A stretch of 64,000 bases of DNA from Octopus vulgaris (lineage: Eukaryota), in NCBI GenBank assembly GCA_951406725.2, contig OX597814.1:73284001-73348000 (forward strand), in the 5' to 3' direction. Shown piece after piece: positions 53,438 to 57,149 of the stretch. The first letter of the stretch is position 1. Each line of letters starts with the position of its first letter. The position numbers were made by a program, and so were the translations under genes. The notes under the pieces are model-generated. The model worked only from the letters and a program-made list of their open reading frames with translations. It made no database searches and was not told where the DNA came from.

Positions 53438-53634
53438 AGGCACAAGGCTTGACATTTTTGGGGAGGGGATTAATCGGTTACATCGACCCCAGTACACAAG
53501 TGGTACTTAAATTATCGACCCCGAAAGGATGAAGGAAAAAGTCGACATCGGTGGAATTTGAACTCAGAACGTAAAAACGGACGAAATACCGCTAAGCATT
53601 TTGCCTGGCGTGCTAGCGATTCTGCCAGCTTGCT

Positions 53635-53667
<33 letters not shown>

Positions 53668-53840
53668 AATAATGGTTTCAAAGACCAGCAAATTTGTGGA
53701 AAGGGACCAGTCGATTACATCGACCCCAGTGCTCAATTGGTACTTATCGATCCTGAAAGGATGAAAGGCAGAGTGAACATCGGCGGAATTTAAACGTAAA
53801 CGCGGACAAAAGGCCGCTAAGCATTTTCTCCGACGTTGAT
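53438..53840 (-). mobile_element. Two SINE family C copies
   Basis: Match 13936-14130. Confidence 0.8.
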
Positions 53841-54629: not shown

Positions 54630-55963
54630 TAGGGCGTCTCAAAAAATGTACTCACATTTTGACTCCCCATAACTCATTGAATTTTTAATTTCTATTCAGA
54701 TCAATTTGACCCTAATTATAGCAAAAGTACGATTAAATTTTGAAGAAAGAAAATTTGTCATTAAGTGCTATTGGAAGCACGAAAATATGGAAGTGCAGAG
54801 AAATATTGTATATACAAAGACCCACCGACACAAAGCACCATTGCTCGCACACGAGATGAGTTTGAATCTGATGGAACTGTGCATAACGTCCATAAGGAGT
54901 GTTCAGGAAGACCACAGTTATCAACCAGCCCGCAAAGAAAGAACAATTGCTGGAAACACTACGGCAATCTCCACAGAAATCTCCACGACAAATGGCTCAT
55001 GAGATGAGAATCCCAAAATCATACACCCATCTTATTTTACAGCGAGCTGGTTGCAAATGTTACACTCCAACATTAATCCATGCTTTAAATGAAGACGATC
55101 CTGACCGGAGAGTTGAATTTTGTGAGTGGTATCTAGGCAAATGCAAGGAAGATACAGTATGCAGCATTTACATGCAAGATTGTTTGGACTGAAAAGGTTA
55201 GTTTTAAGTTACATGGCTCAATTAACCGACGCATTTGCATCTACTGGGCCACTGAAAATCCGCATAATACCAAGCAACACCATTTGAACTTACCAGGTAT
55301 TATAATGTGGGTGGGGATATCAGTATTGGGTATCCTAGGGCCTTTTTTTTTTTTTACCAAACTGTCACTGGTGATGCTTATCTAAACTTGCTGCAGGAAT
55401 CCGTCGTTCCATGTGTCGAAGAGCTATTTACTGATGAAGAGATTTACATTCAGCAAGACGGAACACCTCCCCATAACCATCGTAATGTAAGGACCTATCT
55501 CGATGAAACTTTTACGAACAGACGGATTGGGCGAAGAGGTAATGTTGAATCCCCTGTGCGTTAACCAGACTTCTTTTGGACTTTCTTTTTATGGGGCTAC
55601 CTCAAAGATAAGGTTTACCGCTCAAAACCAGCAACAGTAAATAACCTGAGAGAGGACATTGAAAGACAATGTCTCGCAGTTCCAAATAAAATGATGCGCA
55701 ACGTTTTTGAGTCCATCGGTCCGCGGTATCGGTTGTGTTTGGAGAGCGGTAATCATCAGTTTGAACATTTACAAAAATGCTTTTATCCATTTTGCGTTTA
55801 ACCATTAATCATTGTCAATAAACAATGTATTTATTGTCATTTAAAGAGTGAGAACATTTTTGACCATGTATTTGCAAATTTGAACTATTAATCCTGTTTC
55901 TATGTCAATAAACACTGCATTAATTGTCATTTAAAGTGTGAGTACATTTTTTGGGACACGACG
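54630..55963 (+). mobile_element. IS630/Tc1/mariner DNA transposon relic, full span
   Basis: Imperfect TIRs TAGGGCGTCTCAAAAAATGTACTCACA / TGTGAGTACATTTTTTGGGACACGACG flanked by TA; transposase pieces [64 protein letters not shown]. Confidence 0.9.
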
Positions 55964-56267
55964 TATAATCATGACAATTCGCATGCCCCACCAAAAGACA
56001 TAAATGGACACGTGCAGGCTTAGCGTAACTAATATATATATTATATATATATAGCAATAATAATTCTCTAAATGAGATATAGACAGTGACTGCTCCATAA
56101 TATAAGGGATATTAGCCAACTGAATATGGCTAGGGACAGGGCAGGGTGGTGGGGGTGTCACTGTTGCATTTAGCCCCAGGCGAACATCAACGTCACCAGA
56201 TAGGCCGACGCCATCACGGCGTCCTCTATCTTGCAAAGGGAGATCATCCACCAAGAAGCGGATACCA

Positions 56268-56313
56268 CACACGGACCTAGGTTTCAAGGTGTATTGCCTA
56301 TTATCAACGTGTG
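56268..56313 (-). ncRNA. Minimal hammerhead ribozyme (U3-A8)
   Basis: CACACG TTGATAA T AGG CAATACA CCT T GAAA CCTAGG TC CGTGTG. Confidence 0.82.
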
Positions 56314-56812
56314 GTAGGCATCGCTTCTCGATGAACGACCAACCGTGCAAGATATCTATAAAGATTTTCAAGTAAATACATTTACTGATTTCGAAAATCT
56401 GTTCGACAGCAATAATAATTCTCTAAATGAGATATAGACAGTGACTGCTCCATAATATAAGGGATATTAGCCAACTGAATATGGCTAGGGACTGAATATG
56501 GCTATGTATCCGCTTCTTGGTGGATGATCTCCCTTTGCAAGATAGAGGACGCCGTGATGGCGTCGGCCTATCTGGTGACGTTGATGTTCGCCTGGGGCTA
56601 AATGCAGCAGTGACACCCCCACCACCCTGCCCTGTCCCTAGCCATATTCAGTTGGCTAATATCCCTTATATTATGGAGCAGTCACTGTCTATATCTCATT
56701 TAGAGAATTATTATTGCTGTCGAACAGATTTTCGAAATCAGTAAATGTATTTACTTGAAAATCTTTATAGATATCTTGCACGGTTGGTCGTTCATCGAGA
56801 AGCGATGCCTAC

Positions 56813-56858
56813 CACACGTTGATAATAGGCAATATACCTTGAAACCTAGGTCCGTGTG
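56813..56858 (+). ncRNA. Minimal hammerhead ribozyme (U3-A8)
   Basis: CACACG TTGATAA T AGG CAATATA CCT T GAAA CCTAGG TC CGTGTG. Confidence 0.82.
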
Positions 56859-57149
56859 TGGTATCCGCTTCTTGGTGGATGATCTCCCTTTGCAAGATAG
56901 AGGACGCCGTGATGGCGTCGGCCTATCTGGTGACGTTGATGTTCGCCTGGGGCTAAATGCAACAGTGACACCCCCACCACCCTGCCCTATCCCTAGCCAT
57001 ATTCAGTTGGCTAATATCCCTTATATTATATATATATATATAATCAGAAAATGGAGAAAACCTCAGATGAACAAGCACATTGATTGGACGACATTTATAG
57101 CTTATTTTCTAATACAAAGCATGGCATAACAAAAAGGCAACGTAACATA

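What the first reader, a model, noticed from the sequence alone, without database searches (positions are those of the whole stretch)
56053..57030. 355 nt tandem ribozyme unit copied more than once on both strands
About 1.3 units on minus and 1.5 units on plus, nearly identical, meet head-to-head with a short ACTGAATATGGCTA stutter at the joint. The plus array begins ~8 nt downstream of the predicted cut (GUC|CGUGUGUGGUAUCC). Greater-than-unit copies with no ORF fit reverse transcription of a circular or multimeric RNA, as in retrozymes.
Basis: partly seen in the sequence, partly recalled or inferred. Interest (0 to 1): 0.72.

Follow-up and report, generated by a model that had tools for sequence, protein, structure and literature searches.

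The report
Penelope-pasted hammerhead retrozyme, head-to-head copy
This is one of hundreds of scattered copies of a 355-base non-coding repeat carrying a predicted self-cutting RNA; its two back-to-back arms end at two fixed points in TA microsatellites, so it was likely pasted in by a borrowed Penelope-type retrotransposon enzyme, probably from a small RNA circle, which makes it a new example of a known kind of animal parasite.

Summary
Observation confirmed: 1.24 units on minus and 1.48 on plus, over 99% identical, head-to-head around a 14-nt stutter. The unit holds a type I hammerhead with a U3-A8 core and a palindromic loop III; pairing covaries across sister subfamilies. 1,127 related cores occur genome-wide against 0 for the control. 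This is the Penelope-like (PLE) one-sided tail. Intact Neptune-type PLEs with the same end geometry exist in the genome, but none sampled shares the unit's sequence. The '8 nt after the cut' start is chance: 52 of 54 arms reaching the cut read through, pointing to a circular or uncut template. This locus has one ribozyme per strand, so it is predicted not to release a monomer. Cleavage, expression and circles are untested. Verdict: new member of the animal non-LTR retrozymes, whose PLE link is already proposed in print; this scan noted the same pattern earlier in other families.

The parts
56053..56492 (-). Left arm, 1.24 units; 5' end at unit position 129, outer 3' end at position 213 (long end, with tail)
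56506..57029 (+). Right arm, 1.48 units; 5' end at unit position 1, outer 3' end at position 169 (short end, no tail)
56506..56860 (+). One full 355-nt period; folds as a circle at -118.5 kcal/mol, z -6.5 (antisense z -2.7)
56491..56505 (.). Head-to-head joint: 14-nt stutter repeating 56474-56487, inferred slip of the copying enzyme before the two cDNA ends were joined
   Evidence: untemplated or stuttered joints of 21-34 nt also in L007, L009, L017
56804..56866 (+). Type I hammerhead: 6-bp stem I with 3x1 internal loop and outer helix, U3 (56819) paired with A8 (56824), short stem II with a U.U mismatch at its base, 2-bp stem III with palindromic tetraloop; predicted cut after 56852
56260..56322 (-). 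Second copy of the hammerhead, in the left arm; predicted cut after 56274 on the minus strand
56053..56096 (-). 44-nt tail (unit positions 170-213), present at the left outer end and absent at the right outer end; inferred interval between two reverse-transcription start sites
   Evidence: PMC11167929
56030..56052 (.). Left TA-rich target tract
57022..57043 (.). Right TA tract; 57022-57037 equals 56037-56052 (possible 16-bp target duplication, low complexity, overlapping the unit end by 8 nt)

Best explanation
The locus is one insertion of a non-coding 355-nt hammerhead-bearing repeat (an animal non-LTR retrozyme), likely copied into a TA microsatellite by the reverse transcriptase and GIY-YIG endonuclease of a Neptune-type Penelope-like element, probably from a circular monomer RNA. 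Steps: (1) inferred: loci with two ribozymes on one strand (24 of 97) are transcribed, cut through a dimeric hammerhead and ligated to a 355-nt circle; (2) inferred from PLE biochemistry: the enzyme nicks both strands of (TA)n and starts copying at two internal sites, positions 213 and 169, one from each target end; (3) shown in the sequence: each copy runs a variable distance, often more than once round and straight through the cut site; (4) inferred: the two cDNA ends are joined 5'-to-5' by microhomology, slippage or fold-back, giving the head-to-head form with a tail on one arm only. This locus has one ribozyme per strand and is predicted to be a dead-end product.
For: Ends: 62 of 64 head-to-head insertions pair one long and one short end and none pairs like with like; 150 of 161 outer ends abut TA-rich DNA. 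Among the loci chosen by similarity alone it is 17 of 18. The same inverted form with a one-sided 30-40 bp tail is described for PLEs (PMC8557442 passages; PMC3846280 passages), and the tail was tied in vitro to two RT start sites with nicking and extension of both strands (PMC11167929). Driver present: 16 of 150 scored GIY-YIG matches lie in 781-aa open frames; RT plus GIY-YIG, CxxxxCxxC linker, U3-A8 hammerhead-like core, two ends 38 nt apart at (TA)n, tail on one arm only in L056. Ribozyme: 88.6% of cells paired, 9 of 16 pairs with two-sided change, position 3-8 is C-G 30, U-A 21, U-G 2 of 53 rows. Circle: 69 of 168 arms exceed one unit, longest 1,056 nt; 52 of 54 read through the cut; period stays 354-362 nt across subfamilies 58-99% identical; no array above about 4 units in any locus mapped or row listed, so long copies must be regenerated.
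Against: No cleavage, RNA or circle shown. The ribozyme looks weak: the base pair of stem II next to the core is unpaired in 43 of 53 rows, the lone motif folds into a non-hammerhead centre, and 8 of 9 predicted Xenopus retrozyme dimers did not cleave in vitro (bioRxiv 2026.07.22.740005). In the one PLE studied in vitro uncut RNA was the main template, so read-through of the cut does not need a circle. No sampled PLE shares sequence with the unit (35 loci, 16) and tail similarity to the 781-aa family is not significant (p 0.2-0.43), so the partner is not identified. Covariation counts rest on few independent changes between related subfamilies, and rows were collected with a hammerhead-shaped pattern. 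Only the first 100 rows of each pattern search were listed.
Confidence: 0.6

Rival explanations
1. Same element and same borrowed PLE enzyme, but the template is an uncut linear tandem transcript of 2-4 unit loci; the hammerhead cuts rarely or serves another step.
For: Read-through of the cut fits this equally. Uncut RNA was the dominant substrate of the anole PLE in vitro. Weak stem II base and minimal stem III.
Against: Copies can be no longer than their source, so random 5' truncation should erode the family; yet arms up to 3 units persist and no long master array was seen. Period and hammerhead pairing are kept across subfamilies as far apart as 58% identity.
Confidence: 0.27
2. The unit is the pseudo-LTR of an autonomous PLE that was not sampled, and these loci are its 5'-truncated stubs.
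For: Ends, tail and target are those of PLEs. Xenopus retrozymes are related to PLE terminal repeats. One sister-family copy is directly joined to an RT fragment (L085).
Against: Arms continue into further copies of the unit, not into a shared body. Of 147 loci tested with three PLE proteins, 10 hold PLE pieces; 9 lie 600 nt or more away or tail-to-tail across a TA tract. The PLE family of the L085 fragment has a different 3' end.
Confidence: 0.08
3. A local DNA-level inverted duplication, small satellite or assembly artefact.
For: Near-perfect inverted repeat in a microsatellite-rich region.
Against: The same two outer ends recur at dozens of unlinked loci with different inner joints; the hammerhead covaries; contigs of runs labelled as four organisms hold parts of it.
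Confidence: 0.03

Closest known systems
Animal non-LTR retrozymes (Cervera and de la Pena 2020, PMC7229834; parts 2-3 of 6 and passages read), e.g. mussel 350-390 nt and axolotl 330/350 nt
   Same: Non-coding head-to-tail unit of similar size, under 50% GC, canonical-size type I hammerhead with short palindromic helix III, highly self-paired predicted circle, no LTR; U.U at the base of stem II as in axolotl HHR_Amex2; PLEs proposed there as the likely mobilisers.
   Different: U3-A8 core; short dispersed insertions (at most about 4 units) instead of long arrays; fixed two-end PLE signature and (TA)n targeting (the words inverted, microsatellite and target site are absent from that main text); circles not shown here.
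Li, Clavereau and Pollet 2026, bioRxiv 10.64898/2026.07.22.740005 (parts 1-3 of 5 read)
   Same: [quoted passage not shown]
   Different: Here the link is the insertion anatomy; no sequence similarity to a sampled PLE terminal repeat was found. No mollusc is among the classes named in the part read.
Insertions of endonuclease-bearing Penelope-like elements (PMC8557442 passages; PMC3846280 passages; PMC11167929 parts 1-2 of 4)
   Same: Head-to-head inverted copies, tail on one arm, palindromic joints (18 of 58 joints have both 5' ends within 20 unit positions, p 6e-5), AT-rich or (TA)n targets, two internal RT start sites.
   Different: No RT or endonuclease ORF; the repeating unit is 355 nt, not several kb; tail 44 nt against the 30-40 described.
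U3-A8 hammerhead variant of Schistosoma Cercyon PLEs (PMC4209133, parts 1-2 of 4 read)
   Same: Compensated C3-G8 to U3-A8 core; palindromic helix III expected to work as a dimer.
   Different: Here it sits in a canonical-size motif of a tandem non-coding unit, and sister subfamilies with C3-G8 exist in the same genome.

Membership tests
Animal non-LTR retrozyme | Head-to-tail unit of about 150-450 nt with no coding frame | tested here: met
   355 nt; longest ATG frame 25 aa; 354-362 nt in 30 natural full periods
Animal non-LTR retrozyme | Type I hammerhead in each unit | tested here: met
   Core, three stems and covariation; not detected by Rfam
Animal non-LTR retrozyme | Two consecutive hammerheads on one strand (criterion for an active copy in the 2026 preprint) | tested here: not met
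   This locus has one per strand; the family meets it at 24 of 97 insertions. It bears on this copy's activity, not on family membership.
Animal non-LTR retrozyme | Many dispersed genomic copies, no LTR | tested here: met
   primer-binding site and polypurine tract were not searched for
Animal non-LTR retrozyme | Highly self-paired predicted circle | tested here: met
   z -6.5 for this unit; -2.4 to -7.0 for 6 others; 22 of 75 consensus pairs with two-sided change in 8 diverse units
Animal non-LTR retrozyme | Self-cleavage in vitro | not testable with these tools
   none
Animal non-LTR retrozyme | Expressed as linear and circular monomer RNA | tested here: inconclusive
   Only contigs of runs guessed to be RNA were available
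Autonomous Penelope-like element | RT plus GIY-YIG ORF between pseudo-LTRs | tested here: not met
   No ORF in the unit; no coding body upstream in 146 of 147 loci, the exception being a broken fragment
PLE-type insertion (works like) | Inverted 5'-truncated copy joined head-to-head, tail on one end only | tested here: met
   62 of 64; this locus 213 left, 169 right
PLE-type insertion (works like) | AT-rich or (TA)n target | tested here: met
   150 of 161 outer ends
Derivative of a named PLE terminal repeat | Sequence similarity to the pseudo-LTR of an autonomous family in the same genome | tested here: inconclusive
   None in 51 PLE loci or in tail alignments; only 150 of 6,136 GIY-YIG candidates were scored

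The most novel reading that the evidence does not exclude
A viroid-sized circular RNA is copied twice in one event by a Neptune-type PLE enzyme, once from each side of the cut chromosome and from two fixed internal start sites, and it recruits that enzyme by RNA shape rather than by shared sequence, having evolved as its own lineage of circles (58-99% identity, constant length, C3-G8 and U3-A8 cores) independent of any PLE terminal repeat. The 355-nt unit would then be a minimal substrate for PLE transposition.
Probability: 0.4. Interest if true: 0.6.

Novelty: new member of a known kind. Interest (0 to 1): 0.35.

Why it matters
How animal retrozymes move has been inferred from co-occurrence with PLEs and from terminal-repeat similarity. 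This family shows the enzyme's footprint directly (two fixed ends, one per arm, in 62 of 64 insertions) and shows that copying runs through the ribozyme cut site. It offers a short, young template and an intact candidate enzyme in one genome, enough to test circle versus linear template and the two-start-site model in vitro. The class, the PLE link and the tail mechanism are each in print, which caps the surprise.

Tried and rejected
1) Start of the plus arm near the cut as evidence of a cut linear template: rejected. 2) Rfam: nothing. 3) Search for the autonomous partner: GIY-YIG search gave several Neptune-type families, none with similarity to the unit; the one match (L062) was an unrelated neighbouring insertion of a sister retrozyme. 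The family of the RT fragment in L085 has another 3' end. A pattern for other loop-III variants gave 2 places without tandem structure. 4) Tail likeness to the 781-aa Neptune tail (hairpin then TATTAT) looked suggestive but is not significant. 5) Same RNA molecule for both arms: within-locus differences 1.3% across arms and 1.5% within arms against a median 6.2% between loci, but the nearest other locus was as close or closer in 52 of 63; inconclusive. 6) Expression: no RNA holder on record was listed. Contigs of runs only guessed to be RNA cover the unit, and one 390-nt contig of a diverged subfamily spans about a whole period and joins back on it; a tandem genomic copy would give the same, so this is no evidence. 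7) The 16-bp target duplication cannot be told from chance in a TA tract. 8) The bacterial promoter scan is not applicable and was at chance level. 9) Literature on this family in cephalopods: none seen (one search listed 15 of 4,262 papers, none with the word retrozyme); supplements, which may list such motifs, were not read.

Full report
Observation. The window holds two arms of one 355-nt unit: 56506-57029 on plus (1.48 units) and 56492 down to 56053 on minus (1.24 units), each with two mismatches to the unit, 99-100% complementary to each other. Their 5' ends face each other across 13 extra bases, in which 56491-56504 repeats 56474-56487. Both outer ends abut TA tracts. There is no coding frame above 25 aa. 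The genome is 2.8 Gb in 227 contigs; that it is an octopus-like animal is my inference from recalled features and from wording in earlier scan notes, not a call result.

The ribozyme. Rfam finds nothing, but each arm holds a type I hammerhead (plus 56804-56866, predicted cut after 56852). A degenerate pattern for its core gives 1,127 exact genomic matches against 0 for the reversed pattern, and shows subfamilies from 58% to 99% identity with a period of 354-362 nt. On 53 distinct motifs (55 found by a hammerhead-shaped pattern; two with a truncated or shortened stem left out), 88.6% of cells pair, 9 of 16 pairs change on both sides, and slid controls reach at most 41.8%. Position 3-8 is C-G in 30, U-A in 21, U-G in 2; this unit has U3-A8, a variant reported from Schistosoma PLEs (PMC4209133). 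Loop III is palindromic in 36 of 55 with six different palindromes, the design that paper links to dimeric cleavage. Against strong activity: the pair at the base of stem II is broken in 43 of 53 rows (U.U here), and the lone motif folds with a non-hammerhead centre. The rows are related, so the counts overstate independent events. The sense unit folds as a circle at z -6.5, the antisense at -2.7 (40 shuffles each).

The insertion signature. Mapping 120 fetched loci gave 97 distinct insertions of the close family (hits of 83% identity or more). Outer 3' ends fall in two classes, near unit position 169 (160-172) or 213 (205-225). Of 64 head-to-head insertions 62 have one of each and none has two alike; of 33 single arms 16 are short, 15 long, 2 other; 150 of 161 outer ends abut TA-rich DNA. 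Sixty of the loci were picked from pattern lists that include these ends, which builds in one end but not its partner; among loci chosen by similarity alone the count is 17 of 18. Sister subfamilies end at the homologous places (by eye). This is the PLE structure of an inverted 5'-truncated copy with a tail on one end (PMC8557442; PMC3846280). In vitro, an anole PLE nicks and extends both target strands and starts at two internal RNA sites whose interval is the tail (PMC11167929). In 18 of 58 simple joints the two 5' ends lie within 20 unit positions (p 6e-5), like the palindromic joints described for PLEs; this locus is not one of them.

Template. 69 of 168 arms exceed one unit and the longest is 1,056 nt. 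5' ends are not enriched at the cut: 5 of 149 within 10 nt (8.8 expected), and among 101 outer arms of L143-L202, 2 of 54 arrivals at the cut stop there (1.9 expected). A circle or an uncut multimer both fit. I favour the circle because randomly truncated copies of linear transcripts should shrink over time, no long array appeared in any mapped locus or listed row (only 100 rows of each pattern list were shown), and length is constant over deep divergence. This is inference. Only 24 of 97 insertions have two hammerheads on one strand; this locus does not and is predicted to be a product, not a source.

The driver. The genome has intact PLEs: 16 of 150 scored GIY-YIG matches (6,136 candidates) lie in 781-aa open frames; 11 fetched copies are all open and the one scanned has RT and GIY-YIG domains. 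They carry a CxxxxCxxC linker, which marks Neptune or Nematis clades, a U3-A8 hammerhead-like core, and two ends 38 nt apart at (TA)n; L056 is head-to-head with the tail on one arm. So the enzyme class and geometry match. The exact partner is not identified: no similarity of the unit to 51 PLE loci and no significant tail similarity. Three PLE proteins against 147 retrozyme loci hit 10; nine are 600 nt or more away or tail-to-tail across a TA tract. In L085 a broken RT fragment is joined directly to the 5' end of a sister unit, the whole between two TA tracts; a template jump between PLE mRNA and retrozyme RNA would explain it, but so would insertion with deletion, and it is one case.

Expression is open: no listed run is on record as RNA and only contigs were available.

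Comparison and verdict. The element meets the sequence features of animal non-LTR retrozymes (PMC7229834), for which PLEs were proposed as mobilisers and a 2026 preprint argues PLE origin. It is not an autonomous PLE. I saw no paper on this family (supplements not read). Earlier notes of this scan describe the same pattern in other families and genomes, and none matched this sequence. New member of a known kind with an unusually clean mechanistic footprint; interest 0.35.

Noticed in passing
window 5577-8908 (+): Broken Neptune-type PLE, 55-58% amino-acid identity to the 781-aa family, frame change near 7670, weak RT and GIY-YIG Pfam hits.
   Followed up: partly
window 57044 to about 58300 (-): 3' part of an older repeat family (about 85% identity, 717 candidate places, inverted copies, longer-ended copies) whose 3' end shares the right-hand TA tract with the retrozyme; it has hammerhead core halves about 100 nt apart and no hit to the Neptune proteins. 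May be one of the split-core elements in earlier scan notes; not tested.
   Followed up: partly
L085:886-1745: Broken PLE RT fragment joined directly to the 5' end of a sister retrozyme, the whole between two TA tracts; possible template-switch chimera.
   Followed up: partly
L054:768-2204 and L058:781-2217: The 781-aa Neptune-type family has an upstream 479-aa frame overlapping the start of the RT frame, with no Pfam family above cut-off.
   Followed up: partly
L066-L090, L093-L122: Several sister retrozyme subfamilies (58-90% identity, 3,022 candidate places for one of them) with C3-G8, U3-G8 or U3-A8 cores and different palindromic loops.
   Followed up: yes
window about 54700-55950: Frame-broken remnant that looks by eye like a Tc1/mariner transposase with a 64-nt direct repeat near its end; no Pfam hit for the one piece scanned. 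The label is recalled.
   Followed up: partly
window 53456-53836: Two diverged tandem copies, about 235 nt apart, of a common short repeat that also recurs in the flanks of many fetched loci; probably a SINE (recalled).
   Followed up: no
unit positions about 60-150 (window 56560-56650 and 56120-56210): Contig depth in laid runs is far higher here than on the rest of the unit, suggesting a more abundant related subfamily shares this part.
   Followed up: no
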